Position numbers and translations under genes: made by a program. From positions 8,239 to 72,238 of the forward strand of contig CAZBLT010000008.1 of the NCBI GenBank assembly GCA_964492745.1: a stretch of DNA of 64,000 nucleotides. Reading direction: 5' to 3'. Below the pieces are notes generated by a model. The model did no database searches. It was not told the origin of the DNA and worked only from the letters and a program-made list of their open reading frames with translations. Positions 2,753 to 36,729 of this stretch are shown in pieces (positions within the stretch are counted from its first letter, which is position 1; every line of letters starts with the position of its first letter). The stretch comes from an uncultured Anaerolineaceae bacterium (lineage in GTDB: Bacteria > Chloroflexota > Anaerolineae > Anaerolineales > E44-bin32).

Positions 2753-3532
2753 CTAGATCCCTCCCCCCAGGCTTGCGGCGAGGTCGTAGAGTCGATCCGC
2801 AAGATCGCATATCACTTCTCGCATGCAGAGGCGCTCAACCCAAGAGCCTGGGGTGCCCGACTCGCCATAGTAGGCGCCGGCGATCTGGCCATATATCGCG
2901 CCTGTCGTGTCGGCGTCCTCACCCAGATTGACCGCCAGCAGCGCGCCGACAATCAGGCCGGCGAAGTAGCGGCAGGCATCCACAGCTTCGCGCGCGCCGT
3001 GCGTGGTGCGTGAACTCTCTGCGGCATAATGGATTGCCCTCTCCGGATCGCGGCAGTAGAAGAGCGGGATCGGTGCCAGCCGCATGAGAGAGCCGTTGCC
3101 CGCCGTGCGCTTGTCGGTTGGGCCGCTGAAAGGATCCCCGGTGTGTTCGTATATCCGCAGTGCGGCGCTCATCGTGCGGCCGATATCGAAGCACTCTCCG
3201 GTGGAACTCATAAAGCCTTCATGCCACCATTGGAGATAGCGATCCATCTGGTCTCGGGCGTCGAACCCGCCGTTCTCTACCAGGCTGGCTGCCAGGCAAA
3301 GAGCCACGGATGTGTCGTCGGTCCATTGGTCGGGCTCAAGCCCGAAGGGGCCACCGCCGACCATGTCGGTGATCGGCTCGAAGGTGCCGGGGCGCTGGAA
3401 CTCCAGGGCGGTGCCCAAGGCATCCCCGATCGCAAGTCCGAGGAGCGCGCCATGATATCGAGACCGAAGCTCTTCCATGGACCTTCTCCCCCGGTCCCTC
3501 TTCATCGAGGTTGCCGCGGGTATGCCCGACAA
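2753..3532 (-). CDS. ADP-ribosylglycohydrolase family protein
   Basis: ARH/DraG-type motifs [52 protein letters not shown]. Start uncertain; alternative ATGs at 3505 and 3478. Confidence 0.8.
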
Positions 3533-3565
3533 CCCAAAGCGCTAGCATTGTGGCTTCGTGTATGC

Positions 3566-4589
3566 CTATCCAACATCTCGAATCATGACCTTCTCCATCG
3601 CATCCAGAAAGCATAGCTGAACACTGGGCGATACCCCGAGCAGGGACCGAACCGCCTCCGCGTAGCGTTGCATTTGACGCCGATGCTTTTCAATAACCCT
3701 TATGAGGTCATTTTCATCCCGCAATTCATCGGCCTTGAAATCGATCAGCTTCCATTCGCTCGCATGGCGATAGAGGAGATCCATGACCCCTGAATCGAAC
3801 ACCCGGCCCGGGACAGGCCAGACATACGGCAACTCACGATAGCTTGCATCGGCCGCATCGATTTCTTCCTTGAGCGGGTGCTGCATGAAGCGCTCGAGCA
3901 GCCTGCGGGCCGCCTGGATTGCGGCTGCTCGCTGCACCGGCTGGACCATGCCTTCATTCAAGGCCACCGAATCATAGGAGGCGCTCGATGCCCTCCTGAC
4001 CCGGAAACAGCCTGCGCTCCAATGCTCGATGGACCATGAGGCCGATCACAGCAGCCGGTGGATGCACATGCTCCCCCGTCGCCCGCCAGTCGCGAGCGGG
4101 CTCTTCGTCCAGCTCTGCATCCAGCACCTCGACTGTCTCAGCTTCGATAGGCTTATAGAGGGGCTGCTCGTCCGAATGCGGCCACATCTTTTCAGGCACG
4201 CCCTCAGACGCCCGGCCAGCGTCCACCTTCTCGGGATCCATCCAGGCGGCGATCTCCACGCCCTCCCCGAGCGACAGGTGGTGCCAGCAGGCCGGCTCTC
4301 CTACCAGCTTCTCGATATCAAGATCGGCGGCCTCGGCGAGGGCCTTCATCCAACCCTCCGCCTTCACGCCCCTCGAGCCAACGGTGCAGTGCCCACTGAT
4401 GATCAGCTTCTCGCGCTCCCGGGTGGCGGCCACATAGAGCAGGCGATTCTCCTCCGCCTCGGACTGCCTCCCATCCAGCCAGCGCGCGAATCGATAGGCC
4501 AGGGGCATCGTCATCATCCCGGCTTCCAGATCGTTGAGCACCTTCAGCCGTTTCTGTTCCTTGCCGTTCAATGTCACCTGTTCTCTCAT
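3566..4589 (-). pseudogene. remnant of a UvrD/AddA-type helicase-nuclease (C-terminal part only, frameshifted) fused to a transposase-like N-terminal leader
   Basis: Two adjacent ORFs in different frames (3972-4589 and 3566-3967). The first carries helicase motif VI-like NRLLYVAATREREKLIISG. The second carries RecB/PD-(D/E)XK nuclease motifs (GVMDLLYRH..WKLIDFKAD, QMQRYAEAV). All ATPase domains are missing. The first ~27 aa (MREQVTLNGKEQKRLKVLNDLEAGMMT) resemble N-termini of IS481/ISNCY-type transposases, from memory. Confidence 0.65.
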
Positions 4590-4600
4590 GAGGTGACATT
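4570..4600. repeat. 10-bp perfect inverted repeat enclosing the start codon of the chimeric remnant ORF
   Basis: AATGTCACCT (4570-4579) and AGGTGACATT (4591-4600) are separated by 11 nt that contain the minus-strand ATG (4587-4589). Confidence 0.7.
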
Positions 4601-4661
4601 ATTACTGAACTAATAACCCCTGACATTTTTATTGGACTATAACAAAGTTCGAATTTGGTTC

Positions 4662-4689
4662 TTGACAAGTCGAAAATCCATGCTAGTCT
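4662..4689 (+). promoter_or_regulatory. sigma70-like promoter for the leader region
   Basis: TTGACA (4662-4667), 16-nt spacer, TAGTCT (4684-4689). Lies in an AT-richer intergenic stretch. Confidence 0.4.
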
Positions 4690-4709
4690 ATTTTGCAATA
4701 GGTAAGCCT

Positions 4710-4808
4710 ATGGGTTTCACTTTTTTCTCGCTGTTCATCTCCCTGATATCGCTTCTCATCCTTATTTTGGTCGAGAGGGCTTGCCCGATTGGGGTGATGG
4801 AGCGCTGA
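4710..4808 (+). CDS. candidate leader peptide 1 (32 aa, Ile/Leu/Val-rich)
   Basis: ATG 4710 is preceded by AGGT at 6-nt spacing. Translation is MGFTFFSLFISLISLLILILVERACPIGVMER, with stop TGA 4806-4808. Too short for the ORF track. Confidence 0.5.
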   Translation: MGFTFFSLFISLISLLILILVERACPIGVMER

Positions 4809-4827
4809 GCCTGTACGAGAAGCGCAG

Positions 4828-4858
4828 ACACCTCCCAATCGGGAGGTGTTTTTCGTTT
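4828..4858 (+). terminator. intrinsic terminator T1
   Basis: 9-bp stem ACACCTCCC/GGGAGGTGT, loop AATC, followed by TTTTCGTTT. Confidence 0.7.
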
Positions 4859-4876
4859 ATGCGTGAGGATCGAAGA

Positions 4877-5002
4877 ATGATGATGCCGCCGATTTCCAAG
4901 CTCACCCTGTTCATCCTGGTCCTTATCCTGCTGCCCATTTGCGGGCAGCTCCCGTCGGTTGGGCACGATCCGGGTTGGTCCGTGGAGATGAGCGGGGATT
5001 AG
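4877..5002 (+). CDS. candidate leader peptide 2 (41 aa; 47 aa if started at ATG 4859), Ile/Leu/Val-rich
   Basis: GAGGA (4865-4869) sits 7 nt before ATG 4877. Translation is MMMPPISKLTLFILVLILLPICGQLPSVGHDPGWSVEMSGD. Same frame as track ORF 4781-5002. Confidence 0.45.
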   Translation: MMMPPISKLTLFILVLILLPICGQLPSVGHDPGWSVEMSGD

Positions 5003-5027
5003 ACGGGATCAGATAGCGGGGAGTACC

Positions 5028-5062
5028 AGGAGCTGCCTCAACCTACGGAGGCAGCTCCTTTT
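5028..5062 (+). terminator. intrinsic terminator T2
   Basis: Perfect 12-bp stem AGGAGCTGCCTC/GAGGCAGCTCCT (5028-5039 / 5048-5059), 8-nt loop, then a TTTT run. Confidence 0.65.
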
Positions 5063-5089
5063 GAATCAACATCCTGTCATGGAGGTGAG

Positions 5090-5305
5090 ATGATGAAGAG
5101 ACGGAGACCGACCCCAGATGCTCGCACTTCGAATGCGGATACGGGCTTCGATGTTCGAGGTCCATGGGTCAACGCCTGGGATCCCAACTGGGAAAGAGTG
5201 TCGCCTACGGCCTCGGGAGACCAGCCATCAGGCGAGGATGTCTGCGCCCGGTCACCCGATCCGCAAGAAGCCGCGCAAGGCGAATACCGCGGGCAGGCCG
5301 CATGA
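5090..5305 (+). CDS. hypothetical 71-aa protein (doubtful)
   Basis: Strong GGAGGTGA (5081-5088) lies just before ATGATG (5090/5093). The protein is low-complexity with no recognisable family. The ORF lies between T2 and ilvD. Confidence 0.3.
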
Positions 5306-5412
5306 TTCATCCAGACTGCCCGCAGGATCAGAGGATCCCCGGCCCCCGCCCATTTGCTCGAGACAGCATCGGTCTGGATGGGCAGGCGATTGAACGGCCC
5401 CCAAGGCTCGCG

Positions 5413-7080
5413 ATGCGTTCCAATCAGATCAAACAGGGTTTCGAACGCGCACCTCACCGCGCGCTGCTCAAGGCGGTCGGCGTGGGCGACGCGGATATGC
5501 CAAAACCGTTCGTGGCGGTCGTCAACTCCTACGCGGATATTGTTCCGGGTCACGTCCATCTGCAGGCTTTCGCCGGGACCATCAAGGAGGCCCTCCGCCG
5601 GGCCGGCGCAGTCCCCTTTGAGTTCAACACCATCGCCGTGGACGACGGCATCGCCATGGGGCATCTGGGCATGAAGTTTTCCTTGCCCAGCCGTGAGCTG
5701 ATCGCCGACAGCGTCGAGACGATGATATCGGCCCACTGCTTCGACGCCATGATTTGCATCCCCAACTGCGACAAGATCGTCCCCGGGATGATCATGGCGG
5801 CGTTGCGCCTGAACATCCCAACCATCTTCGTTAGCGGCGGGCCGATGCCCGCAGGCACAACACCCGATGGGCGGGCTGTCGACCTGATCAGCGTCTTCGA
5901 GGGGGTGGGCGCACTGAAGGCGGGCAGGATTGACGAGCAGGATCTGAAGACTCTCGAGGACCACGCCTGCCCCTCCTGTGGATCTTGCAGCGGTCTGTTC
6001 ACCGCAAACAGCATGAATTGCCTCCTCGAGGCTCTGGGTCTGGCGCTGCCCTTCAACGGCAGCGCCCTCGCTCAATCGCAGGAGCGCATCGAGCTGGCTG
6101 AGGAGGCTGCCCAGCGGCTGATGGATCTTATCGACACCGACCTCACCCCGCGCCGCATCGTGACGATGGAGGCTATCGACGACGCTTTTGTCCTGGACCT
6201 GGCGATGGGCGGCAGCACGAACACCGTGCTCCACATGCTGGCGATCGCGCACGAGGCCCAAATCGATTACCCCCTAGAGAGGATCAATGGGCTGGCAAAG
6301 CGTGTGCCACAGCTCTGCAAGGTCAGCCCGGCCTCGCAATGGCACATGCAGGATGTGCACCGGGCGGGCGGGGTGCCGGCGATCTTGCGCCAACTCAGCC
6401 TCGAAGGGGAGCTACTACACCTGGATCGCCAGACGGTCAGCAGCAAGTCGCTTGGCGAGAGCATCGCCGACGCTGCCATCCGGGACCCCGACGTCATCCG
6501 GCCGCGCAGCGACCCGCATGAGGAGACCGGCGGGCTCGCGATTCTCTTTGGCAACCTCGCCCCCGAGGGCGCGGTGGTAAAGACCGGCGCTGTCGCCGCC
6601 TCGATGCAGCGGCATGCCGGGCCGGCACGCGTCTACGAAAGCCAGGAGCAGGCCATGCGGGGAATACTTGGCCGCGAGGTCAAGCCGGGAGAGGTGGTCG
6701 TCATCCGCTATGAAGGACCCGCTGGAGGGCCGGGTATGCAGGAGATGCTCGCACCGACGAGCGCCCTGGTTGGCATGGGCCTGGGTGAGCAGGTGGCGCT
6801 GATCACCGATGGACGTTTCTCGGGGGGAACGCGCGGCGCATGCATCGGTCACGTCAGCCCCGAGGCGGCGGTGCGCGGGCCGATCGCGGCAATCCGAACC
6901 GGCGACATCATTGAGATTGACCTGGAGGCACGCACCCTGAACCTACGGCTTCCAGAAGGCGTGATCCGGGCGCGCCTGCGGGCGCTGCCAGAGTTTGAAC
7001 CGCGCACTTCGAGCAGGTGGCTGCGGCGATATGCCCGCATGGTGGCGAGCGCCTCGGAAGGGGCTGTCCTGCGGGACTAA
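5413..7080 (+). CDS. ilvD: dihydroxy-acid dehydratase
   Basis: [23 protein letters not shown]... is a typical IlvD N-terminus. Motifs [12 protein letters not shown] and [16 protein letters not shown]. Track ORF 5164-7080 trimmed to ATG 5413. Confidence 0.95.
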
Positions 7081-7119
7081 TAGGATGGCGGCTGGAGCAG
7101 GGCGGCCAGGAGGAGTGAG

Positions 7120-8820
7120 ATGAGGATATCGGGAGCACAAGTGATCTGGGAAGTCCTGACCCGTGAAGGCGTGGAGGTCGTGTTTGGTTATCCAGGTGGT
7201 GCGATCCTGCCCACGTATGACGCCATGCTGGATTACCCTCTGCGGCACGTCCTCGCCCGGCACGAGCAGGGCGCGGCGCACATGGCCGACGGCTATGCGC
7301 GGGCGTCGGGCAGAGTCGGTGTCGCCATGGCCACCTCTGGCCCGGGCGCCACCAACCTGGTCACCGGCATTGCCACAGCGATGATGGATTCGTCCCCGAT
7401 CATCTGCATCACGGGGCAGGTTCCCGCCGCGGCCATCGGCAGCGATGCCTTCCAGGAGACGGATGTGACCGGCGTGACGCTGCCGATCACAAAGCATAAC
7501 TACCTCGTCACGCGCGGGGAGGAGATCGCGCCGGCCCTGCGCGAGGCATTCTACGTGGCCCGCACGGGCCGTCCGGGCCCCGTGCTGGTGGATATCACCA
7601 AGGACGCTCAGATGCAGACGGTGGACTTCGACTGGGATGACGGCCCCGTCCGGCTGCCGGGCTACCGGCCGGATCTGCGTGCCCGGCCGGAGGCGCTCGA
7701 TCGCGCCTTAGGACTGATCGAGAGCGCTGAGCGGCCGCTCATCCTGGCCGGACACGGGGTGATTATGTCGGGCGCGATGGACGAATTGCTCGAGTTCGTC
7801 GGCGTGACGCGTATCCCCGTCGCCGTGACGCTGCTCGGGATCGGGGCAATCCCCGCAAGCCACCCGCTGAACCTGGGGATGATGGGCATGCACGGCGAGG
7901 CGTGGGTCAATAAGGCCATCCAGGAGGCCGACCTCCTGCTGGCGTTCGGGATGCGCTTCGACGATCGCGTCACCGGAAATCTCGCGACCTACGCTCCTCA
8001 TGCCAGCAAGGTGCATGTTGACATCGATCCTTCCGAGATCGATAAGGTCGTTAAGGTCGATGTGGGCATTATCGGCGATCTAAAGCAGATCTTGCGGCAG
8101 TTTCTGCCGCGCCTGGACCCGAAACCCCGCGACGGGTGGCTGGCCCGCATCGAGGAGCTCAAGCGGGACTCCGCCGACCGCGATATCCAGAATTGGCCTG
8201 ATGATGGCCGGCTCTACGCCGCACACGTGATCCACGATATCTGGCGCCTCGCCCGGGGGCAGGCGACGATCGTGACCGACGTCGGCCAGCACCAGATGTG
8301 GCAGGCCCAGTACTACCGGCACGAGGAGCCCTACCGTCTGATCACTTCCGGCGGCCTGGGCACGATGGGTTTCGGGCTTCCGGCTGCCATAGGGGCTTGG
8401 TTCGCCCGGCCCGGGGAGCAGATATGGGCTATTGTGGGCGACGGCGGGTTCCAGATGACGGCTGCGGAACTGTCCACCTGCGTTCAGGAGAGCGTCAAGA
8501 TCAACGTCGCCGTCATCAACAACGGCTATTTGGGCATGGTGCGCCAATGGCAGGAGTTCTTCTACGAGCGCCGCTATGCCGCCACGCCGATCCGCAGCCC
8601 CGATTTCGTAAAGCTGGCCGAAGCGCATGGCCTGACTGGCCTGCGAGTCGAGAGCAGGGGCGATGTGGAGGCAGCCGTCAGGCGCGCACACCGGGAGCCG
8701 GGTGGCGTGGTGATTGATTTTCGCGTCGAGGGGGAAGACTGCGTCTATCCGATGGTGCCTGCGGGCGCCGACCTCGACACCATGATCCGTCGCCCCAAGC
8801 CCATTCCTGAACGTCACTGA
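7120..8820 (+). CDS. ilvB: acetolactate synthase large subunit
   Basis: ThDP enzyme motifs (GYPGGAILPTYDA, GGLGTMGFGLPAAIGA, GDGGFQM). AGGAGGAG lies upstream of the ATG. Confidence 0.95.
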   Translation: MRISGAQVIWEVLTREGVEVVFGYPGGAILPTYDAMLDYPLRHVLARHEQGAAHMADGYARASGRVGVAMATSGPGATNLVTGIATAMMDSSPIICITGQVPAAAIGSDAFQETDVTGVTLPITKHNYLVTRGEEIAPALREAFYVARTGRPGPVLVDITKDAQMQTVDFDWDDGPVRLPGYRPDLRARPEALDRALGLIESAERPLILAGHGVIMSGAMDELLEFVGVTRIPVAVTLLGIGAIPASHPLNLGMMGMHGEAWVNKAIQEADLLLAFGMRFDDRVTGNLATYAPHASKVHVDIDPSEIDKVVKVDVGIIGDLKQILRQFLPRLDPKPRDGWLARIEELKRDSADRDIQNWPDDGRLYAAHVIHDIWRLARGQATIVTDVGQHQMWQAQYYRHEEPYRLITSGGLGTMGFGLPAAIGAWFARPGEQIWAIVGDGGFQMTAAELSTCVQESVKINVAVINNGYLGMVRQWQEFFYERRYAATPIRSPDFVKLAEAHGLTGLRVESRGDVEAAVRRAHREPGGVVIDFRVEGEDCVYPMVPAGADLDTMIRRPKPIPERH

Positions 8821-8838
8821 GGCATAGGAGGCAGAGCC

Positions 8839-9402
8839 ATGACCAGCCGCCCATTTGCGGAGCCGAGCAAGCACACCCTTGTGGTCTACGTCGAAGACAA
8901 GCCCGGCGTTCTCAACCGGGTGGCCTCCCTCTTCCGGCGCCGGGCCTTCAACATCGATTCCCTCTCGGTGGGTCCCACAGAGCAGCCGGGGGTGTCCCGC
9001 ATGACGATCGTCGTGCAAGCCGATGACGCCACCGCCCGCCGGGTGGAGGCCAACCTATACAAGCTGGTCAACGTGCTCCGCGTGGAGGACGTGACCTTCC
9101 GCCCCGCGGTGATGCGCGATCTGGCCCTGATCAAGGTGCGAGCCGGTCGGGAGGCGCGCGCCCAGATCTTGCAGTTGTGCGAGGTTTTCCGGGCCAAGGC
9201 CCTGGACGTGGCGCCGGATACGCTGATCGTGGAGATCACCGGCACGGAGGATAAGATCGAGGGGCTGTTGGAAGTGCTCCGTCCATTTGGCATCGTCGAG
9301 ATGGCGCGCACGGGAAGGGTCGCCATGACGCGCGGGCCCCAGACAGTAACCCCGAACCCCGAGTTCGTCTCGGCACTCCTCCCAAATGAGGCAAGGGGCT
9401 GA
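8839..9402 (+). CDS. ilvN: acetolactate synthase small (regulatory) subunit
   Basis: ACT-domain N-terminus HTLVVYVEDKPGVLNRVASLFRRRAFNIDSLSVG. Sits immediately after ilvB. Confidence 0.9.
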   Translation: MTSRPFAEPSKHTLVVYVEDKPGVLNRVASLFRRRAFNIDSLSVGPTEQPGVSRMTIVVQADDATARRVEANLYKLVNVLRVEDVTFRPAVMRDLALIKVRAGREARAQILQLCEVFRAKALDVAPDTLIVEITGTEDKIEGLLEVLRPFGIVEMARTGRVAMTRGPQTVTPNPEFVSALLPNEARG

Positions 9403-9451
9403 GATCAACAGCATCCGATAGATGAGCGAATCCATAGGGGAGACGATACCC

Positions 9452-10486
9452 ATGGCTATTATGTACTACGAGCAAGATGCTGATCTGGAACTCATCCGCT
9501 CCAAGAGAGTGGCGGTCATCGGCTATGGCTCCCAGGGCCACGCGCAAGCGCTCAACCTGCAGGACAGCGGCGTGGAGGTGTGGGTGGGATTGCGGCCGGG
9601 CAGCCCGAGCCGCCAGCGGGCCCAGGATGCGGGTCTCTTGGTGGCTGAGATCCCTGCCGCGGCTGACTGGGCAGATGTGATCACCCTGCTCGTGCCCGAC
9701 ACGGCCCAGCCGGCCATCTATGCTGAACACATAGCCCCGGCCATGAAGCGCGGCAAGACGCTGATGTTCAGCCATGGCTTCAACATCCGTTTCGGGACCA
9801 TCCAGCCGCCCGCCGATGTGGACGTGAGCATGGTGGCGCCCAAGGCCCCCGGCCACCGGGTGCGCGAGACATTTCTGGACGGGGAGGGCACGCCTGCCCT
9901 GGTGGCCGTGCATCAGGATGCCAGCGGGCAGGCGCTGGCGCTGGCGCTCTCCTACAGCAAGGCGCTGGGGGCCACGCGCGCCGGGGTGATCGAGACCAGT
10001 TTTGCGGAGGAGACCGAGACCGATCTCTTCGGAGAACAGGCCGTGCTCTGCGGTGGGGTGAGCGCGCTGGTGGAAGCAGCTTTTGAGACCCTCGTGAAAG
10101 CCGGCTATCAGCCCGAGATCGCCTACTTCGAGTGCCTGCATGAACTCAAACTGATCGTCGATCTGATGTATCGCGGCGGCCTGAATTACATGCGCTATTC
10201 CGTTAGCGACACGGCTGAGCATGGCGATTACACGGGCGGCCCGCGGCTGATCACCGAGGAGACCATGGGTGAGATGCGGCAGATGCTCGCCGAAATTCAG
10301 GATGGCACCTATGCCCGCAAGTGGATCGAAGAGAATCGGAATGGCCGGCCATGGTTCAACGAGCAGCGGCGCAAGAAGCAAGAGTTGCTGATCGAACGAG
10401 TGGGAGCAAAACTGCGCAGCAAGATGCCGTTCCTCAACCCGGTCACGATCAGGCCCGGCGGCCAGCCCTCGGGGAGCGAAGGATGA
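9452..10486 (+). CDS. ilvC: ketol-acid reductoisomerase
   Basis: [36 protein letters not shown]. Track ORF trimmed to ATG 9452, which has AGGGGAG upstream. Confidence 0.95.
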
Positions 10487-12174
10487 GGGAGGCGAGTCTC
10501 AACCAGGTGTTCATCTTCGATACCACCCTGCGGGACGGTGAGCAATCGCCCGGCGCCTCGCTGACATCGACCGAGAAGCTGGAGGTTGCCCGCGGCCTGT
10601 CGAGATTGGGCGCCGACGTCATCGAAGCGGGGTTCCCCGCCTCTTCCCCGGACGAACTGCACGCTGTGCAGAAGATCGCCGAAGAGGTGGGCAATCGGCC
10701 TGCCGGTGCGCCGGAGGATTCACGGCTGCCGCCGGTGATCTGCGGCTTGGCGAGGGCCGTTGCCGAGGATATTGAGAAGGCCTGGGAGGCCGTGCGTGCA
10801 GCCGCCAGGCCCCGCATCCACACCTTCATCGCCACTTCGGACATCCACCTGAAACACAAGCTTCGCATGACCCGTGAGCAGGTGCTACAGCACGTCCACG
10901 ATATGGTGGCGTTCGCACGCGCTCTCTGCGAGGATGTCGAGTTCAGCGCAGAAGACGCCAGCCGCAGTGATATCCCCTTCCTATGTGCCGTCTTGGAGAC
11001 CGCGATCCACGCCGGCGCCACCACAGTAAACATCCCCGACACCGTCGGTTACGCCATGCCCGGCGAATTCGAGGCCCTGCTTCGTGAGATCCGGGCCAGC
11101 GTCGCAGGTATCGAGAAGGTTGTCCTGTCTGTGCATTGCCACGACGACCTCGGCCTGGCGACGGCAAACACGCTTGCCGGCATCCGGGCCGGCGCGCGCC
11201 AGGCGGAGGTCACCGTAAATGGCATCGGCGAGCGCGCCGGTAACACCTCCCTGGAGGAGGTGGTGATGGCCATCCACACGCGCCGCGATTTATTCGGCCT
11301 TTCCACCAGCGTCGATACGACCCAGATCAGCCGTGTGAGCAGATTGGTGAGCCACCACACTGGCATCGTTGTGCCGCCGAACAAGGCCATTGTGGGTGCG
11401 AACGCGTTCGCGCACGAGGCCGGAATCCACCAGGATGGGATGCTGAAGAACCATCAGACCTACGAGATCATGCGGCCGGAGTCGATCGGCCTGAGCCAGA
11501 GCCGTCTGGTGCTGGGGAAGCATTCAGGGCGCCATGGTTTCCAAACCCGCCTGCGAGACCTCGGCTACGAGCTGGGGGATGAGGAACTGCTGCGAGCGTT
11601 CGAGCGCTTCAAGGCTCTGGCTGATAAGAAGAAGATCATCACCGACGCCGATCTGGAGGCGCTGATCGCCGACGAGCTCTACCAGCCCGAAGAGGTCTTC
11701 GCCCTGGAGGGACTGCAGGTTGCCTGCGGGACGATGGGCATGCCAACGGCGACCATCAGGCTGCGTGGGCCAGAAGGCGCAGTGCGAGTGCACGCCGCCG
11801 TGGGAACTGGCCCGATCGACGCCGCCTTCAAGGCGATCGATGAGATCATCCGTGCCCCCAACCGGCTGCTGGAGTTCTCCGTGCACGCCGTGACCGAGGG
11901 CATCGACGCTCAAGGGGCCGTGACCGTGCGTATCCAGGACGCGCAGATGGAGGCGATCTCGGAAGGCCTGCCTGACGCCGGAGATCCGCGCACGTACACA
12001 GGTTACGGCGCCGATACGGACATCATCGTCGCCAGCGTGAAAGCTTTCCTGTCGGCGATGAACAAATTGCTAATCGCCAGAGCGGGCGCCCGGCGGCTGG
12101 AATGGTTCACAAACGGGATGCGATCGTCCGCGCCGCAGCCATTCGGCGAAAGCCAGGATAGGCCAGAAGCGTAG
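10483..12174 (+). CDS. leuA: 2-isopropylmalate synthase
   Basis: [19 protein letters not shown] and [16 protein letters not shown], plus a C-terminal LeuA regulatory domain. ATG 10483 overlaps the ilvC stop (ATGA). Confidence 0.9.
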
Positions 12175-12201
12175 GCCCGGCGTTCAGCAGCGAAGGTAAT
12201 C

Positions 12202-13617
12202 GTGGCCATGAGCAAGCCGAAGACCATGCTCACAAAGATCTGGGAGGCACACATCGTGGCAGAGGAGTCAGGGTGCCCTTCGATTCTCTACATTGACCTT
12301 CATCTGCTTCACGAGGTGACCTCCCCACAGGCCTTCTCCGGATTGCGCTCGCGCGGTATGGCCGTGCGCCGGCCGGAGAAGACCGTAGCGACGATGGACC
12401 ATTCCATCCCCACGGACGGCCGCCCCCGCAGCGCCCTTCCGGCGGAGGCCGCTGCACAGCTGCGGAGGCTGGAGGAGAATTGCCGGGATTTCGGCATCGA
12501 GCTCTACGGCTGGGATTCGCCCAAGCAAGGGATTGTTCACGTGATTGTCCCCGAGCTGGGTCTCACACAGCCGGGCATGACGATCGTCTGCGGTGATAGT
12601 CATACCTCGACCCACGGCGCATTCGGCGCACTGGCCTTCGGCATCGGAACGAGCGAGGTCGAACATGTGCTCGCAACCCAGTGCTTGCTTCAGTCCAAAC
12701 CCCATTCGTTTGAGGTCCGCATCGAGGGAAGGTTGCCCGCGGGAGTCACGGCCAAAGACGTCATCCTGGCCTTGATCGCCGAGATCGGCGTAGGGGGAGC
12801 AGAGGGGCACGTCTTCGAGTACACAGGATCGACGATCCGTGGGCTGGATATGGAAGCTCGCATGACGATCTGCAATATGTCCATCGAGGCCGGCGCACGC
12901 GCAGGGATGATCGCGCCAGATGACACCACGTTTGATTATTTGGCCGGACGCGAGCACGCCCCAAAAGGGGAGGCATGGGAGATGGCGCTGGAGGCCTGGC
13001 GGCGGCTGCCTGGCGATGAGGGCGCCGAACATGAGCGTTCTGTCACGCTGGACGCCTCCCAATTGGCGCCGATGATCACCTATGGAACCAACCCTGGCCT
13101 GGCGATGCCCATCACACAGTCCATCCCCGATCCCGCCAAGGTAGGCCAGCCGTCTCATCGCGCCGCCCTGACCAGCGCTCTGGACTATATGGGCTTGGCG
13201 CCAGGTCAGAAGCTGCTGGGCCACAAAGTCGACGTGGTCTTCATCGGCTCGTGCACCAACGGGCGCATCTCAGATCTGCGTCAAGCCGCCAGAGTCCTTC
13301 GAGACCGAAAAGTTGCGCCGGGCGTTCGGGCCCTGGTGGTCCCCGGCTCGCAGATCGTAATGCGGCAAGCGGAGGCAGAGGGGCTGGACCGTATCTTCCA
13401 GGAGTCCGGGGCGGAGTGGCGCCAGCCGGGGTGCTCAATGTGTATCGCTATGAACGGCGATAGCTTGCGGCCTGGCGAGTACGCTGTGAGCACTTCCAAT
13501 CGCAACTTCGAGGGCCGCCAGGGCAAGGGAGGGCGCACCTTTCTGGCCTCACCGCTCACCGCCGCCGCGGCCGCAGTCGCCGGCGAGATCACGGACGTCC
13601 GAAAGATGCTCAGCTAA
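12202..13617 (+). CDS. leuC: 3-isopropylmalate dehydratase large subunit
   Basis: Aconitase-family motifs ([44 protein letters not shown]). Start is GTG 12202 or ATG 12208. Confidence 0.95.
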
Positions 13618-13632
13618 TATGCGAAGATGTGA

Positions 13633-14241
13633 ATGCGAGTGACCCCGTTGAGAGCTTTCGACACGCTGACCTCTCGCCTCGTGCTTCTGCCCATCGATGA
13701 CGTGGACACGGATCAGATCATCCCGGCTCGCTTCCTGACTGCGCTTGAACGGGATGGCCTGGGAAAATACCTGTTCGCCGACTGGCGCTCGATGCCGGAT
13801 GGCTCGCCGAACCTCGAGTTCGTTCTCGACCGGCCGGAAGTCAAAGGGGCCAGTATCCTCCTTGCCGGGGCTAATTTCGGCTGTGGGTCCTCTCGCGAAC
13901 ACGCCGTCTGGGCGCTGATGGATTGGGGCGTGCGGGCGGTTGTGGCGATCTCCTTCGCCGATATCTTTCGCGGCAACGCCCTAAAGAACGGCCTGCTGAC
14001 CGTCGAGCTCGAGGCCGAGGCCCACACCGAATTGCTTCGCGTCGCTCGCAAAGATCCCTTAATCGAGTTGACAATCGATCTGCCTACGCAGGTCGTGATA
14101 CTGCCCAACGGACGCAAGTTTGGTTTCCCCATCGATCCCTTCGACAAGCGCTGCCTGCTGGAGGGTATCGATACGCTCGGGTATCTGCTCTCCTTCTCAG
14201 CGGAGATATCGGCCTATGAGAGGCGATGTGAACAGTCATGA
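13633..14241 (+). CDS. leuD: 3-isopropylmalate dehydratase small subunit
   Basis: DVDTDQIIPARFL and GANFGCGSSREHAVWAL. Confidence 0.9.
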   Translation: MRVTPLRAFDTLTSRLVLLPIDDVDTDQIIPARFLTALERDGLGKYLFADWRSMPDGSPNLEFVLDRPEVKGASILLAGANFGCGSSREHAVWALMDWGVRAVVAISFADIFRGNALKNGLLTVELEAEAHTELLRVARKDPLIELTIDLPTQVVILPNGRKFGFPIDPFDKRCLLEGIDTLGYLLSFSAEISAYERRCEQS

Positions 14242-15676
14242 GCTGATCCATATATATGACACGACGCTGCGGGACGGTGCGCAGCGTGAGGGCATCTCGT
14301 TCTCCTGCGAGGACAAACTCCGTGTGGCACGCTGCTTGGACAAGTTGGGCGTTGTCTTCATCGAGGGCGGGTGGCCGGGTTCGAACCCCAAGGACGCTGA
14401 GTTCTTCGAGCGTGCAAGGGCGATCCCATGGCGGGAGGCGACGATCGTCGCCTTCGGCTCTACCCGGCGTCCGAACATCCCGCCCGAGCAGGACGTCAAC
14501 CTGCTCGCTCTGCTGGATGCCGGGACGCAGGTGTGCACCCTGGTGGGGAAGAGTTCGCCGATGCACGTGCTTGAGGTGCTGCGCGCCACGCTGGACGAGA
14601 ACCTACGCATGATCGAGGACAGCGTGGGCTTTCTGCGATCTAAGGGTCGCAGGGTGATCTATGATGCAGAACACTTCTTCGATGGCTACAGGAGCGACCC
14701 TGACTATGCCATGGAAACGCTCAGCGCCGCGGCACGAGGTGGTGCGAAGACCATTGTGCTCTGTGATACGAACGGAGGCATGATGCCCTGGGAGATCCAT
14801 GCCATCGTGCGGGAGGTGAGCAAGAGGCTCGATCTGCCCCTCGGCATCCACGCTCACGACGACGCGGCGTGCGGCGTGGCCAACAGCCTCGCGGCGGTGC
14901 TGGCTGGGGCGGTTCAGGTGCAGGGTACGATCAATGGCTACGGCGAGCGCTGTGGGAATGCCAACCTGTGCGCAGTGATCCCCAGCCTGGAGTTGAAGCT
15001 TGGGTTCCGGGCCCTCCCGGAAGGCAGACTCAAGCGGCTGAGGCAAGTAGGGCGCTTTGTGGCGGAGATTGCCAACATCGCCCCCGATGAACACATGCCT
15101 TACGTGGGTAGCAGCGCCTTCTCCCATAAGGGCGGGCTCCACGTGGCCGCCATGCGCCGCAACGCGCATTCATATCAGCATGTTGATCCTGCCGCGGTTG
15201 GGAACGAGACGCGTGTCACCGTGAGTGAGCTCTCCGGCCGGGCGAACCTGCTCAGCAAGATCGAAGAATACGGGCTCGCTTCCATGGATGCCTACACCGC
15301 ATCGGAGATACTCCGCGAGCTCAAGGAGCTTGAGGCCAAGGGGTTCTCTTTTGAAGCCGCCGATGCTTCCGTTGCGATGATGATCCAGCGCCGGGCACCT
15401 TCCTATGAGCCACCCTTTGAGCTCATCGACTACGTCGTGATGGTCGAACACCGTCAGCGACGAGAGACCTTCGCCGAAGCAACGGTTAAGCTCTCTGTAA
15501 GGGGTGAGGTTCTGCACACTGCGGCCGAGGGCAACGGTCCCGTCCACGCGCTGGACGCCGCCTTGCGAAAGGCGTTATCGCCGATCTACCCGGCGATGCG
15601 CTCATTCCAACTTGTGGATTACAAGGTGCGTATCCTGGACGGCAGGCAGGGAACCGCCGCCATGACGAGGGTGTAA
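14216..15676 (+). CDS. cimA: (R)-citramalate synthase (LeuA family), ended prematurely by an in-frame TAA
   Basis: IHIYDTTLRDGAQREGISFSCEDKLRVARCLDKLGVVFIEGGWPGSNPKDAEFF is the CimA-type N-terminus. The ORF stops at TAA 15674-15676, but the same frame continues with a homologous C-terminus to 15805. Confidence 0.8.
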   Translation: MRGDVNSHELIHIYDTTLRDGAQREGISFSCEDKLRVARCLDKLGVVFIEGGWPGSNPKDAEFFERARAIPWREATIVAFGSTRRPNIPPEQDVNLLALLDAGTQVCTLVGKSSPMHVLEVLRATLDENLRMIEDSVGFLRSKGRRVIYDAEHFFDGYRSDPDYAMETLSAAARGGAKTIVLCDTNGGMMPWEIHAIVREVSKRLDLPLGIHAHDDAACGVANSLAAVLAGAVQVQGTINGYGERCGNANLCAVIPSLELKLGFRALPEGRLKRLRQVGRFVAEIANIAPDEHMPYVGSSAFSHKGGLHVAAMRRNAHSYQHVDPAAVGNETRVTVSELSGRANLLSKIEEYGLASMDAYTASEILRELKELEAKGFSFEAADASVAMMIQRRAPSYEPPFELIDYVVMVEHRQRRETFAEATVKLSVRGEVLHTAAEGNGPVHALDAALRKALSPIYPAMRSFQLVDYKVRILDGRQGTAAMTRV

Positions 15677-15805
15677 ATCGACACTCGCGATGGCCGCCGG
15701 CGCTGGAGCACGGTGGGGGCCTCCACCAATATCATCGAGGCCTCCTGGTTGGCATTGGCAGATAGCATCGAGTACGGACTAGTGATCGAATGCGGGCGCC
15801 TATAG
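15677..15805 (+). other. in-frame continuation of cimA after the TAA (42 codons, C-terminal regulatory domain end)
   Basis: Translation [42 protein letters not shown] is in the same frame as cimA. The motif NIIEASW..AL.DSIEY is typical of LeuA/CimA C-termini. Confidence 0.75.
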
Positions 15806-15897
15806 CGGAGCGCGCGGGTTACATAGATTGCCACTGCCGAGGGGCTGTCTCTTCCGTTTGATCGATTCCGCGCCTGTGCAATGGGAGTTTGGAGAAG

Positions 15898-16968
15898 ATG
15901 CGAGCAAAGATCGTGCTTTTACCCGGAGATGGGATCGGAGCGGAAGTCATTGCGGAGGCCCGCTCCGTGCTAGAGACCGTGGCACGGCTGCACGGACACA
16001 ATTTCTCCTTCGAGGAGCACCTCATTGGGGGCTGCGCGATCGAGGCGTGCGGAAGTCCGCTGCCGGAGGAGACCCTCGCCGCGTGCCGGGCGGGAGAGGC
16101 GGTCTTGCTGGGGGCCGTCGGCGGGCCGCAGTGGGAGGATCCTCAGGCGGCTATGAGGCCGGAGCAGGGTCTGCTTGTCCTGCGGCGTGAACTGGGACTG
16201 TTCGCGAACCTGCGGCCGGTACGATCCATCCCGGCGCTTGAGAACGCCTCTCCGCTGCGTGGGGAGAAAGTGCGGGGGGTGGATATCATGATCGTGCGGG
16301 AGCTCACGGGTGGCCTCTACTTCGGCCGATCCGGAACGACCAGGCTCGCGGGCGGCAGCCTGCGCGCCTTCGATACACTCGAGTACACTGAGGCGGAGGT
16401 GAGGCGTGCGGTGCGCTTGGCCTTCCGGTTGGCGATACGCCGGCGAGGTCTGGTGACCTCGGTGGATAAGGCCAACGTGCTCGAGTCATCGCGATTGTGG
16501 CGGCGTGTGACGGAGGATGTTGCGGCGGAGTATCCCCAGGTGAGGTTGGAGCATCAGTTGGTGGATTCGGCCGCCATGCGGCTGATGCAAGCGGCCGCCA
16601 CTTATGATGTGCTGGTGATGGGCAACCTTTTCGGCGACATCCTGAGTGATGAGGCCTCGGCCCTGGCAGGCTCGTTGGGCATGCTTCCGAGCGCCTCCAT
16701 TGGGGAGGGTTCTCTCGGGGTTTATGAGCCCGTTCACGGCTCCGCGCCCGACATCGCCGGGAGGGGCATCTCAAACCCTATCGGGGCGATTCTAAGCGCC
16801 GCCATGCTGCTGCGCCATTCGCTGGCGCTGGAGGCTGAGGCTGAGCAGGTCGAACGCGCCGTGGAGAAGGCCCTTGAGGCAGGCGCTCGCACCGCCGACC
16901 TAGGGGGTGAGAAGATCATCAGCACCCGGGAGATGGGCCAGGCTATCCGGGCGCAGCTGGCGCCGTGA
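15898..16968 (+). CDS. leuB: 3-isopropylmalate dehydrogenase
   Basis: MRAKIVLLPGDGIGAEV... and NLFGDILSDEASALAGSLGMLPSAS. The track start at 15889 is TTG; ATG 15898 is preferred. Confidence 0.95.
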   Translation: MRAKIVLLPGDGIGAEVIAEARSVLETVARLHGHNFSFEEHLIGGCAIEACGSPLPEETLAACRAGEAVLLGAVGGPQWEDPQAAMRPEQGLLVLRRELGLFANLRPVRSIPALENASPLRGEKVRGVDIMIVRELTGGLYFGRSGTTRLAGGSLRAFDTLEYTEAEVRRAVRLAFRLAIRRRGLVTSVDKANVLESSRLWRRVTEDVAAEYPQVRLEHQLVDSAAMRLMQAAATYDVLVMGNLFGDILSDEASALAGSLGMLPSASIGEGSLGVYEPVHGSAPDIAGRGISNPIGAILSAAMLLRHSLALEAEAEQVERAVEKALEAGARTADLGGEKIISTREMGQAIRAQLAP

Positions 16969-26578: not shown

Positions 26579-27223
26579 TTATCCTCGAGCAACGCGCTGC
26601 TCTCGCCAGATATCCCCCTCATTATGGTAACCGGCCTTCTCCCAGAAGCCCGGCTTATCTTCCTTCAAGAACTCTAAGCCCCGCAACCACTTGCCGCCTT
26701 TCCAGAGATAGATGTCTTTGAGGTCCTTACGCCCCGGTATGGCCCCCACCACACCTCGCAGCGGAAAGCCATGCTCCGGCGTAAGGGGATCCCCATTGAA
26801 ATGGGTAGCCAGCAAGAAGTTGTCCGCAAGCGCCACGGATATGGGTGTGTTCGTGGTGTAGCCGTATTCGCAGTGCTGAACCACAAATGCTGCCTCGGGC
26901 CTCGGCCGCACGATTCCTGCCTCTACAAGTTGCTTCAGCGAGACTCCCTCCCAGGTGGTATCAAACTTGCTCCACCTGGTGACACAATGGATGTCCATCA
27001 CCACCTGGGTCCTGGGCAGACGCTGGAATTCATCCCACGTCCACCGCAGTTCCTCCTCAACCTCTCCCCAGATGCGGAAATCCCACGTCTCAGGGTCGAA
27101 TGGCGGGATGGGCCCGTAGTGTAAAACCGGAAACTTCAGCGTCAGCGATTGCCCTGGTGGCAAACGCCCTTCCTTTTGCATCCGGCGCTCGTAGGCTCGG
27201 CGTCCACCGCTCTCGTTGGCCAT
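26579..27223 (-). CDS. sulfite-oxidase-like molybdopterin-binding oxidoreductase domain protein
   Basis: LPPGQSLTLKFPVLHYGPIP, DIHCVTRWS, GFPLRGVV. Track ORF trimmed to ATG 27223, which has GGAGAGG upstream. Confidence 0.7.
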   Translation of the reverse strand: MANESGGRRAYERRMQKEGRLPPGQSLTLKFPVLHYGPIPPFDPETWDFRIWGEVEEELRWTWDEFQRLPRTQVVMDIHCVTRWSKFDTTWEGVSLKQLVEAGIVRPRPEAAFVVQHCEYGYTTNTPISVALADNFLLATHFNGDPLTPEHGFPLRGVVGAIPGRKDLKDIYLWKGGKWLRGLEFLKEDKPGFWEKAGYHNEGDIWREQRVARG

Positions 27224-27345
27224 CTCATCCTCTCCAACGCTGCGGGGCATTATACCCGCTGCATGGATGGCTAAGATCGGGAACCGCGGGCGTGTCCCGG
27301 ACGTCTGAAGGTCAAAGGCTCGAAGGTCCGCAAGGAGGATCGACC

Positions 27346-28844: not shown

Positions 28845-28876
28845 GGCGGGCTGCCTGAAGCAGGCAGCCCGCCTTT
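28845..28876 (+). terminator. terminator-like hairpin after the DUF4139 gene
   Basis: 13-bp stem GGCGGGCTGCCTG/CAGGCAGCCCGCC, loop AAG, then only TTT. Confidence 0.5.
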
Positions 28877-36135: not shown

Positions 36136-36546
36136 CTAGTTCACTTCCCCCGGTGGGCGCCCCTCCGCCCGCCAGCGATCTATGAAAGCCTCGGTCTTGG
36201 CCTGAACTTCGTCTGGAACGAAACCCATGCGAGCCGCGTCGGCCAGGAAGCTGCGCACCAACCCTTCGAGCGCCGCCTCGCGCAGACGCTCAGCCCGCTC
36301 CGGGGGCAGGGGCTCCAACACGAAGGTCCCCCGCCCCTGTTGGGTGGAAATCACACCCGCCTCGTCCAAGATGCGATATGCCCGCGCCACGGTGTTGAAG
36401 TTCACCCGCAACTCCGCCGCCAGCTGCCGCACGGTGGGGAGCTGGTCGCCTGGCTTGAGCACGCCTGTCGCCACCAGGTGTTTCACCCGGTCGACCAACT
36501 GCACATAGATGGGCACGTGGCTGCGGAAATCCAGGTCGGCAAACAT
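36136..36546 (-). CDS. GntR family (YtrA-like, short) transcriptional regulator
   Basis: VPIYVQLVDRVKHLVATGVLKPGDQLPTVRQLAAELRVNFNTVARAYRILDEAGVISTQQGRGTFV. 136 aa with no large effector domain. Confidence 0.85.
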   Translation of the reverse strand: MFADLDFRSHVPIYVQLVDRVKHLVATGVLKPGDQLPTVRQLAAELRVNFNTVARAYRILDEAGVISTQQGRGTFVLEPLPPERAERLREAALEGLVRSFLADAARMGFVPDEVQAKTEAFIDRWRAEGRPPGEVN

Positions 36547-36551
36547 GCAAT

Positions 36552-36689: not shown

Positions 36690-36729
36690 CAATATGAAAG
36701 AGGATACATTCCCGTCTGGGGAGGCTCAT

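What the first reader, a model, noticed from the sequence alone, without database searches (positions are those of the whole stretch)
4859..5062. Second tandem leader-like ILV-rich ORF with its own terminator and a perfect 9-bp anti-terminator option
What the sequence shows: ORF 4877-5002 (or from ATG 4859) translates to MMMPPISKLTLFILVLILLPICGQLPSVGHDPGWSVEMSGD. The run LTLFILVLILLPI (4901-4939) has 10 of 13 residues Ile/Leu/Val. Twenty-five nt after the stop lies a perfect 12-bp hairpin (5028-5039/5048-5059) followed by TTTT. GGCAGCTCC (4944-4952), directly after the ILV run, is identical to the core of the terminator right arm and perfectly complementary to GGAGCTGCC (5029-5037) in the left arm. 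That makes it a candidate anti-terminator. GCTGCCC (4930-4936) can also pair with GGGCAGC (4943-4949), giving a 1:2-type hairpin. The only GGAGG available to ATG 4859 (4842-4846) is buried in the right arm of terminator 1, so translation from 4859 would depend on how attenuator 1 folds. ATG 4877 has its own GAGGA. Both peptides end their hydrophobic run with a Cys/Pro/Ile/Gly cluster (ACPIG versus LPICG), which hints at duplication. Two attenuators in series in front of one BCAA cluster would be unusual. The stop codon is about 50 nt downstream of the proposed region 2, so the geometry is less classical than in attenuator 1.
Basis: partly seen in the sequence, partly recalled or inferred. Interest (0 to 1): 0.65.

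Follow-up and report, generated by a model that had tools for sequence, protein, structure and literature searches.

The report
Second BCAA leader-peptide attenuator in tandem
A short Ile/Leu/Val-rich reading frame with its own terminator hairpin, placed behind a first such unit in front of a branched-chain amino-acid operon of an Anaerolineae bacterium, is very probably a second ribosome-sensing transcription attenuator in series: a textbook kind of switch, but from an undescribed family and in an uncommon doubled arrangement.

Summary
The window is from an uncultured Anaerolineae (Chloroflexota) bacterium. The region heads an ilvD-ilvBNC-leuA-leuCD-cimA-leuB operon. Upstream of ilvD, 48 related loci carry one unit of the same design: an ILV-rich short ORF, a hairpin inside the ILV run, an ORF segment complementary to the terminator's left arm, and an intrinsic terminator. 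The complementary segment and the left arm covary. A covariance model built only from other organisms finds exactly two hits in the 64-kb window: unit 1 (4743-4858) and unit 2 (4913-5066). Two units in series also occur in L002, L005 and L085, so 4 of 49 loci are tandem. In L002, ORF2, its frame, its stop position and the hairpin are kept. ATG 4859 and the Cys are not kept, so the start is about 4877 and the lipoprotein idea fails. A second antiterminator, the one conserved across the family (4957-4975), lies just downstream. The function is inferred, since no RNA data exist for this organism. Verdict: a new variant of classical attenuation, of moderate interest.

The parts
4662..4689 (+). Promoter-like site for the whole leader: TTGACA (4662-4667), 16-nt spacer, TAGTCT (4684-4689). 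Inferred.
   Evidence: Read from the sequence. TTGACA-N16-18-TAxxxT lies at the same place in L002 and L005. The consensus scan did not call it.
4710..4808 (+). Leader ORF1, MGFTFFSLFISLISLLILILVERACPIGVMER (unit 1).
   Evidence: Called as a 32-aa gene on the identical Logan contig.
4826..4856 (+). Terminator 1: 10-11 bp stem, AATC loop, U-tract.
   Evidence: Terminator scan. Covariance-model hit 4743-4858, 28.6 bits, E=2.9e-6.
4865..4869 (+). SD-like GAGGA, 8 nt upstream of ATG 4877.
   Evidence: All four second units (window, L002, L005, L085) have an SD-like 4-mer at -18..-4.
4877..5002 (+). Leader ORF2 (41 codons, three ATGs at the start). ILV-rich run at 4901-4939.
   Evidence: called as a 41-aa gene; conserved in L002 with the same frame and stop position.
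4930..4949 (+). P1 hairpin GCUGCCC/GGGCAGC. Its 5' arm is made of the last ILV-run codons.
   Evidence: Predicted at -14.9 kcal/mol. It sits at the alignment position of the family P1 hairpin, whose arms covary. L002 keeps it with one G-U pair.
4939..4952 (+). It overlaps the 3' arm of P1.
   Evidence: Duplex -21.8 kcal/mol with explicit pairs. It forms in the MFE when a ribosome is placed at A-sites 4919 or 4925. P=0.0016 by shuffling.
4957..4975 (+). Antiterminator option B (GGUUGGGCA...). It pairs with 5025-5043. It is the homologue of the family-wide antiterminator.
   Evidence: Duplex -21.9 kcal/mol. The same segment in L002 gives -26.7. The family helix covaries.
5028..5062 (+). Terminator 2: perfect 12-bp stem, 8-nt loop, short U-tract UUU(U)G.
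   Evidence: Hairpin -24.7 kcal/mol. The stem is identical in L002 and there is no stem variant in strain-level metagenome contigs, whereas the loop varies. Covariance-model hit 4913-5066, 26.7 bits, E=8.8e-6.
5090..5305 (+). ORF3: a conserved 71-aa ORF of unknown function (motif GPWxNAWxPxWE) with GGAGG 3 nt upstream of its ATG. It lies between terminator 2 and ilvD.
   Evidence: Found only in the window, L002 and L005, all of which are tandem loci. No Pfam or NCBIfam match. One 96% homologue.
5413..16968 (+). Regulated operon: ilvD (5413-7080), ilvB, ilvN, ilvC, leuA, leuC, leuD, cimA, leuB.
   Evidence: NCBIfam matches above curated cut-offs.

Best explanation
Unit 2 is ORF2 (4877-5002) plus hairpin 5028-5059. 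I read it as a second ribosome-mediated (leader-peptide) transcription attenuator. It acts in series with unit 1 on one transcript that starts near 4697 and continues into ORF3 and the BCAA operon.

Proposed steps, all inferred:
1. RNA polymerase that has read through terminator 1 transcribes ORF2. A ribosome loads at GAGGA/ATG 4877.
2. When charged Ile, Leu and Val tRNAs are plentiful, the ribosome runs through the ILV codons to the stop at 5000. P1 (4930-4949) re-forms behind it and locks up segment A. Segment B is covered by the ribosome or held in a local hairpin. The left arm 5028-5039 therefore pairs with 5048-5059, and transcription ends at the short U-tract.
3. When a BCAA is scarce, the ribosome stalls in 4901-4939 and melts the 5' arm of P1. 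Segment A and/or B is left free to pair with the left arm as it emerges. The terminator cannot form and transcription continues.

Because both units must be passed, read-through probabilities multiply. This would give lower basal expression and a steeper response.
For: Family evidence:
- 48 other loci in Chloroflexota and some Gemmatimonadota carry an ILV-rich short ORF plus terminator just upstream of ilvD.
- A covariance model built from 35 such units, none from the window, L002 or L005, hits the 64-kb window only at unit 1 and unit 2 (E=2.9e-6 and 8.8e-6).
- Alternative pairing is supported by covariation. Each leader's 3' part binds its own terminator left arm at a mean of -21.3 kcal/mol, against -16.2 for permuted partners (z=-10.6, 0 of 20,000 permutations).
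- On a structure-blind MAFFT alignment the antiterminator helix is 79% paired. Its covariation score is 0.303 against 0.161 for shuffles (0/500). Slid controls pair at most 58%.
- The terminator helix is 93% paired, covariation 0.560 against 0.239.
- Left-arm column 158 (C or U) changes together with both its right-arm partner and its antiterminator partner.
- The residues after the ILV run switch between EN/ES, KD and GQ in step with complementary Val-Leu codons. This points to selection on RNA pairing, not on the peptide.

Unit 2 itself:
- L002 keeps the ORF, the frame, the stop-to-hairpin distance (25 nt) and an identical stem. Its differences in A and P1 are G-U compatible.
- Segments A and B (about -22 kcal/mol each) are comparable to the terminator (-24.7).
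- Constrained folds with a ribosome on the ILV codons yield A or B paired with the left arm.
- The stop-to-terminator distance of 25 nt equals the family median. B starts 17 nt after the run, against a family median of 13.

Tandem units recur in L002, L005 and L085.
Against: - There are no transcript data. No RNA run holds this region, so termination at 5062, translation of ORF2 and the response to BCAA are all unshown.
- The U-tract of terminator 2 is short (UUUUG), and the consensus scan did not call it.
- The stop codon lies 24-47 nt beyond the antiterminator segments. Occlusion by a terminating ribosome is therefore less direct than in the trp leader, and the model leans on P1 and a local hairpin that are only predicted.
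- The register of the antiterminator helix used was chosen after looking at the alignment.
- There is a precedent for caution. In Streptomyces coelicolor, an ilvB leader that looked like a classical attenuator did not respond to mutation of its ILV codons (as reported in PMC1262725).
Confidence: 0.78

Rival explanations
1. Unit 2 is a decaying duplicate of an attenuator. It still looks like one but contributes little regulation, because its terminator has weakened. Unit 1 does the work.
For: The U-tract is only UUUUG in the window and the terminator scan does not call it. Unit 2 scores far below single-copy family members on the covariance model (26.7 bits against 70-111 bits). 45 of 49 loci manage with one unit.
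Against: The stem is a perfect 12 bp. It is identical in L002 at 81% IlvD identity and invariant in strain variants, while the loop and spacer change. ORF2's frame, ILV run, stop position and both antiterminator segments are retained in L002. The two-unit-plus-ORF3 layout is also present in L005 at 72% IlvD identity. Unit 1 scores no better than unit 2 (28.6 bits).
Confidence: 0.1
2. ORF2 encodes a functional small hydrophobic (membrane or lipoprotein-like) peptide, and hairpin 2 is simply the terminator of that small gene.
For: The peptide has a hydrophobic stretch of about 13 residues. Gene callers annotated it as a 41-aa gene. LLPIC loosely resembles a lipobox.
Against: The Cys is Arg in L002. 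LPIC violates the lipobox consensus L-[ASTVI]-[GAS]-C (own knowledge). There is no Pfam or NCBIfam match. Across the family only ILV richness is kept. The flanking residues flip charge (E/K/G) in step with RNA pairing, and the C-terminal codons covary with the terminator. The hydrophobic run is almost purely I/L/V, as in BCAA leaders. A terminator placed 350 nt upstream of ilvD within a single operon leader makes little sense as a plain gene end.
Confidence: 0.04
3. The ORF2 and hairpin 2 module regulates by another route, for example Rho-dependent termination, mRNA stability or control of ORF3 translation. Hairpin 2 would then be a processing or stability element rather than an intrinsic terminator.
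For: The U-tract is short. ORF3 with a strong GGAGG begins 28 nt after the hairpin. The tandem attenuators of Salmonella mgtCBR lack intrinsic terminators (PMC3641672).
Against: Family members have canonical terminators with 5-9 U. L002 has UUUUU. The covarying alternative pairing targets exactly the terminator's left arm, which is the signature of terminator/antiterminator switching.
Confidence: 0.06

Closest known systems
Classical leader-peptide attenuators of BCAA operons in Enterobacteria (ilvGMEDA ilvL, ilvBN ivbL, leu leuL). Own knowledge; the related Rfam leader families were searched.
   Same: A short ORF with a run of Ile/Leu/Val codons, mutually exclusive antiterminator and terminator hairpins, an intrinsic terminator, and a position in front of BCAA biosynthesis genes. 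Even the peptide tail resembles ilvL (…VVIIIPPCGAALGRGKA against …LILLPICGQLPSVGH), probably because GC-rich pairing segments are being translated.
   Different: There is no sequence or model similarity. The Rfam scan at E<=1 gave nothing on unit 2 and only a sub-threshold Phe_leader hit (29 bits against a gathering score of 55) on unit 1. The phylum is different (Chloroflexota). The antiterminator lies inside the ORF, well upstream of the stop. There are two units in series.
Actinobacterial ilvB leaders: Corynebacterium ilvBNC three-hairpin attenuator and ilvB-II uORF (PMC11857589, PMC10272879); Streptomyces and Mycobacterium candidates (PMC1262725).
   Same: An ILV-codon uORF upstream of ilv genes with a terminator hairpin, in a non-proteobacterial phylum. 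Most were predicted by comparative genomics.
   Different: They are single units in front of ilvB, not ilvD. They are unrelated in sequence. In S. coelicolor, mutating the ILV codons had no effect, which warns that resemblance is not proof.
Tandem attenuators of the Salmonella mgtCBR leader (mgtM and mgtP; PMC3641672).
   Same: Two short translated ORFs in one leader, each controlling its own alternative stem-loops and acting independently on transcription into the coding region.
   Different: The mgtCBR ORFs sense different signals (ATP and proline) and lack intrinsic terminators. Here both ORFs are ILV-rich and each has its own hairpin-plus-U terminator.
Tandem T-boxes and tandem riboswitches of the same specificity, such as two or three T-boxes before Firmicute trp or thr genes and tandem TPP or glycine aptamers. 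Own knowledge; the tandem metE riboswitches are mentioned.
   Same: Serial terminators that respond to the same metabolite, with multiplicative read-through and a sharper response.
   Different: Those elements sense uncharged tRNA or ligands directly through RNA. Here the sensor is a translating ribosome.

Membership tests
Chloroflexota ilvD-leader attenuator family (defined here; not in Rfam 15) | Match to a covariance model built from family members of other organisms | tested here: met
   Model R1 was built from 35 units, none from the window, L002 or L005. Hit at 4913-5066, 26.7 bits, E=8.8e-6. It is one of only two hits in 64 kb on both strands.
Chloroflexota ilvD-leader attenuator family (defined here; not in Rfam 15) | Short ORF with a dense Ile/Leu/Val run, upstream of ilvD on the same strand | tested here: met
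   10 of 13 ILV residues at 4901-4939, and ilvD at 5413. ORF2 sits further upstream of ilvD than single-copy members do (its stop is 411 nt before the ilvD start, against roughly 70-140 nt), because ORF3 intervenes.
Chloroflexota ilvD-leader attenuator family (defined here; not in Rfam 15) | P1 hairpin whose 5' arm is made of ILV-run codons and whose 3' arm directly follows the run | tested here: met
   GCUGCCC/GGGCAGC at 4930-4949, all 7 pairs formed, at the aligned P1 position.
Chloroflexota ilvD-leader attenuator family (defined here; not in Rfam 15) | ORF segment (GGUUGGGC type) complementary to the terminator's left arm and loop | tested here: met
   Segment B, 4957-4975, pairs with 5025-5043 (16 bp, -21.9 kcal/mol). 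In the alignment-free test, the cognate pairing ranks 3rd of 50.
Chloroflexota ilvD-leader attenuator family (defined here; not in Rfam 15) | GC-rich hairpin with a CCCAACC-type apex followed by a U-tract, 16-44 nt after the stop | tested here: met
   12-bp stem with CUCAACCUACG apex, 25 nt after the stop, which equals the family median. The U-tract is only UUUUG, shorter than usual.
Classical ribosome-mediated (leader-peptide) transcription attenuator | Mutually exclusive antiterminator and terminator structures, selected by ribosome position on the regulatory codons | tested here: inconclusive
   Complementarity, covariation and constrained folds agree with the model. Ribosome-dependent switching itself cannot be shown in silico.
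Classical ribosome-mediated (leader-peptide) transcription attenuator | The leader ORF is translated | not testable with these tools
   The only support is an SD-like GAGGA 8 nt upstream and a conserved frame and stop in L002. No RNA or ribosome-profiling data exist.
Classical ribosome-mediated (leader-peptide) transcription attenuator | Termination at the attenuator is relieved by starvation for the cognate amino acid | not testable with these tools
   The organism is uncultured and no RNA run holds the region.
Rfam amino-acid leader families (Leu, Thr, His, Trp, Phe leaders and others) | Score at or above the family gathering threshold | tested here: not met
   cmscan at E<=1 over 3500-13000 gave no hit on unit 2. 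Unit 1 gave Phe_leader at 29.1 bits against a gathering score of 55.
Bacterial lipoprotein signal peptide | Conserved lipobox L-[ASTVI]-[GAS]-C with an invariant Cys | tested here: not met
   LPIC has Pro at -2 and Ile at -1. The Cys is Arg in L002. No Cys is conserved across the family.

The most novel reading that the evidence does not exclude
The doubled attenuator is a selected device and not a leftover. Two ribosome-sensing ILV attenuators in series would form a multiplicative, ultrasensitive gate on a nine-gene BCAA superoperon. Unit 2 carries two stacked antiterminators (A and B), so that stalling at early or at late ILV codons is read differently. The conserved ORF3 (GPWxNAWxPxWE), found only in three of the four tandem loci, would be a new small protein tied to this control.
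Probability: 0.2. Interest if true: 0.6.

Novelty: new variant of a known kind. Interest (0 to 1): 0.42.

Why it matters
Leader-peptide attenuation is textbook biology, but it has been documented mostly in Proteobacteria, Actinobacteria and Firmicutes. This work gives a covariation-supported family of about 50 ILV attenuators in front of ilvD in Chloroflexota, with look-alikes in Gemmatimonadota. The family is absent from Rfam 15, and I found no paper describing it.

A minority of these loci, the window among them, carry two complete ILV-sensing units in series. The one tandem leader-ORF attenuator I found in the literature (mgtCBR) senses two different signals and lacks intrinsic terminators. 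If the tandem units are functional, they offer a natural test of how serial ribosome-dependent terminators shape dynamic range and sensitivity.

The finding also improves annotation of uncultured Anaerolineae. The 32- and 41-aa 'genes' called here are regulatory leaders, not proteins.

Tried and rejected
- Rfam scan at a permissive threshold: no known family on unit 2.
- RNA-seq search for the window region: none found. DNA metagenome contigs gave only about 1% strain variation. No stem changes were seen, so there was no compensatory evidence at that scale.
- Herpetosiphon-like metatranscriptome contigs show only that the leader and ilvD are co-transcribed. They do not show termination.
- Lipoprotein or membrane-peptide reading: rejected.
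- ATG 4859 as the start: rejected as not conserved.
- Orthology of window units 1 and 2 with L005 units 1 and 2 by pairwise identity: too diverged to decide. Shared ORF3 and similar T1 apexes are the only hints.
- A third ILV-rich cluster at 36561: turned out to be an AT-rich GntR/pdxS intergenic region, not a leader.
- ORF3 function: no Pfam or NCBIfam match, and only one near-identical homologue.
- Literature searches for Chloroflexi attenuators: nothing relevant.
- The P1 hairpin could not be put into the covariance model, because its 5' arm shifts by whole codons between members. It was tested without an alignment instead.

Full report
OBSERVATION.
- ORF2 runs from ATG 4877 (three consecutive ATGs; an in-frame ATG at 4859) to TAG 5000-5002. 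It encodes MMMPPISKLTLFILVLILLPICGQLPSVGHDPGWSVEMSGD, with 10 of 13 Ile/Leu/Val residues in 4901-4939.
- GAGGA lies at 4865-4869.
- Twenty-five nt after the stop is a perfect 12-bp hairpin (5028-5039/5048-5059, 8-nt loop) followed by UUUG.
- GGCAGCTCC (4944-4952) is the exact complement of GGAGCTGCC (5029-5037).
- GCTGCCC (4930-4936) pairs with GGGCAGC (4943-4949).

These features are rare. On both strands of the 64-kb window there are only three perfect hairpins of at least 10 bp. In six frames there are only three clusters with at least 10/13 ILV: ORF1, ORF2 and an unrelated AT-rich intergenic stretch. A perfect complement of 9 nt or more to the left arm arose in 0.16% of dinucleotide-preserving shuffles of 4877-5022. 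One weakness is the short U-tract. The consensus terminator scan called terminator 1 but not hairpin 2.

CONTEXT. The genes downstream are ilvD (true start 5413), ilvB, ilvN, ilvC, leuA, leuC, leuD, cimA and leuB, all above NCBIfam cut-offs. The closest relatives of IlvD are MAGs of Anaerolineae/Chloroflexota. An identical contig comes from a Logan assembly in which both small ORFs were called as genes. DNA runs that hold the region are marine-sediment and hydrothermal-vent metagenomes. No RNA run holds it. A TTGACA-N16-TAGTCT promoter-like site at 4662-4689 is conserved in L002 and L005. Nothing promoter-like lies between the two units, so unit 2 is reached only by read-through of terminator 1.

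A FAMILY OF ILV LEADERS IN FRONT OF ilvD. Scanning 160 ilvD loci from genomes and metagenomes showed that most Anaerolineae and Chloroflexia loci, and some Gemmatimonadaceae loci, carry an ILV-rich short ORF followed within 16-44 nt by a GC-rich hairpin plus U-tract. Members share four elements:
1. The ILV run.
2. A hairpin P1. Its 5' arm is made of Val-Leu codons of the run, and its 3' arm directly follows the run.
3. A GGUUGGGC-type segment, a median of 13 nt after the run, that is complementary to the terminator's left arm and apex.
4. The terminator.

Three tests support alternative pairing.
- Without any alignment, each leader's 3' part binds its own left arm at a mean of -21.3 kcal/mol, against -16.2 for permuted partners (z=-10.6, 0 of 20,000).
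- On a structure-blind MAFFT alignment the antiterminator helix is 79.4% paired, with covariation 0.303 against 0.161 for shuffles (0/500). Slid controls pair at most 57.7%. The register was chosen after inspecting the alignment.
- The terminator helix is 92.8% paired, with covariation 0.560 against 0.239.

Left-arm column 158 (C or U) changes together with both its right-arm partner (G or A) and its antiterminator partner (G or A). That is the signature of two mutually exclusive helices.

P1 covaries too. All 7 pairs form in 65% of cognate arm pairs, against 20% of non-cognate pairs. The two residues after the run switch between Glu-Asn/Ser, Lys-Asp and Gly-Gln in step with the complementary codons. 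Selection therefore acts on RNA pairing and ILV content, not on the peptide sequence.

IS UNIT 2 A MEMBER? A covariance model built from 35 units, none from the window, L002 or L005, finds exactly two matches in the whole window. They are 4743-4858 (28.6 bits, E=2.9e-6) and 4913-5066 (26.7 bits, E=8.8e-6). Unit 2 has every family element:
- P1 at 4930-4949 (-14.9 kcal/mol).
- The family-type antiterminator B at 4957-4975, pairing with 5025-5043 (16 bp, -21.9 kcal/mol).
- The terminator (-24.7 kcal/mol), 25 nt after the stop, which is the family median.

The ORF therefore contains two consecutive segments that can each sequester the whole left arm.

In the closest relative, L002 (IlvD 81% identical), ORF2 is kept in frame with the same stop position (MFGPASHISILALLILVLIELPIRGRLPSVGHVPVRSWENSGD). 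The hairpin stem is identical and the loop differs by one base. The U-tract is UUUUU. The two substitutions inside A give G-U pairs, and B is stronger (-26.7) than A (-17.5). ATG 4859 is ATT there, and the Cys is Arg. Strain-level variants in metagenomes change a synonymous Ile codon, one Pro to Leu, the spacer and the loop, but not the stem.

MECHANISM (inferred). Constrained folding of the nascent RNA gives different outcomes with ribosome position.
- With a ribosome footprint on ILV codons (A-site 4919 or 4925), segment A pairs with the left arm.
- With the A-site at 4913 or 4937, segment B pairs with the left arm.
- Without a ribosome, the full-length RNA forms P1, a local hairpin over B, and the terminator.

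The likely logic is classical attenuation. Stalling in 4901-4939 opens P1 and frees A and/or B, which blocks the terminator. Unimpeded translation to 5000 lets P1 re-form and the terminator fold. Since both units lie on one transcript, read-through probabilities should multiply. Neither peptide is specialised for one BCAA: ORF1 has 6 Leu, 5 Ile and 2 Val, and ORF2 has 7 Leu, 4 Ile and 3 Val.

HOW UNUSUAL IS THE TANDEM? With the model, 48 other loci have a full-length hit upstream of ilvD. Two hits occur only in L002, L005 and L085, so 4 of 49 loci including the window are tandem. The window, L002 and L005 also share a conserved ORF3 between terminator 2 and ilvD. L085 lacks ORF3, and its second unit ends 31 nt before ilvD. 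All four second units have an SD-like motif. Pairwise identities are too low to prove that the window and L005 units are orthologous.

COMPARISON WITH KNOWN SYSTEMS. The module works like the enterobacterial ilv and leu leaders and the actinobacterial ilvB leaders, but it matches no Rfam family. I found no paper describing attenuators in Chloroflexota. The tandem leader-ORF attenuators of Salmonella mgtCBR sense two different signals and lack intrinsic terminators. Serial sensors of one signal are known for T-boxes and riboswitches (own knowledge). One caution applies: an ilvB leader of S. coelicolor that looked like a classical attenuator did not behave as one when its ILV codons were mutated.

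VERDICT. The element is a new variant (two same-signal units in series) of a known mechanism, in a family not yet catalogued. Function remains inferred. Confidence is about 0.78 and interest is moderate.

Noticed in passing
window 5090-5305 (+); L002 473-676; L005 about 2754-2955: A conserved small ORF3 (71 aa in the window) with the motif GPWxNAWxPxWE and a GGAGG just upstream. It lies between terminator 2 and ilvD. Differences between the window and L002 are largely at third codon positions, so it looks coding. It occurs only in three tandem-leader loci. No Pfam or NCBIfam match, and one 96% homologue in 5.8 billion proteins.
   Followed up: partly
L043, L057, L060, L065, L073, L078, L079, L120 (upstream of ilvD): Gemmatimonadaceae/Gemmatimonadota MAGs also carry ILV-rich leader ORFs (for example MILSSLVLLTLVVLSVSLTELIGMRGGSAA) before ilvD. 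Some have terminators and match the Chloroflexota model weakly (L060 41 bits, L073 39 bits). The family, or a convergent twin, therefore spans two phyla.
   Followed up: partly
window 4710-4808 and 4736-4856: ORF1 starts with four Phe in nine residues (MGFTFFSLF), and unit 1 gives a sub-threshold Rfam Phe_leader hit (29 bits against a gathering score of 55). The Phe residues are not conserved in L002 (two Phe), so this is probably incidental.
   Followed up: partly
window 36545-36612: An AT-rich intergenic region between a divergent short GntR-family regulator (36136-36546, minus strand) and a PdxS-like gene (36694-37617). It contains about five TTGTA(C/T) repeats and is possibly the regulator's operator. 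It showed up as a false ILV-rich frame.
   Followed up: no
window 28845-28873 and 51045-51075: The only other perfect hairpins of at least 10 bp in the window. One has a 13-bp stem between convergent ORFs (27100-28824 plus strand, 28922-29815 minus strand), with TTTCGC after it, and is likely a bidirectional terminator. The other is a 14-bp palindrome in an intergenic gap without a T-run.
   Followed up: no
L083 621-717: A partial second match to the attenuator model (model positions 53-143, 22.8 bits, E=3e-4) about 400 nt upstream of the full unit at 1115-1256. It may be a degenerate extra unit or an attenuator of an upstream gene.
   Followed up: no
L058 2454-3400 (Herpetosiphon aurantiacus region) in RNA runs X23-X26: Metatranscriptome contigs of Herpetosiphon-like organisms begin 12 nt upstream of the leader ATG (2454) or inside the leader (2497) and continue through the terminator into ilvD. 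The leader is therefore part of the ilvD mRNA there. Contig data cannot show attenuation.
   Followed up: partly
window 14120-15676: A citramalate synthase gene (cimA) sits between leuD and leuB. The operon thus encodes the threonine-independent route to isoleucine alongside the ilv and leu genes, all behind the two ILV attenuators.
   Followed up: no
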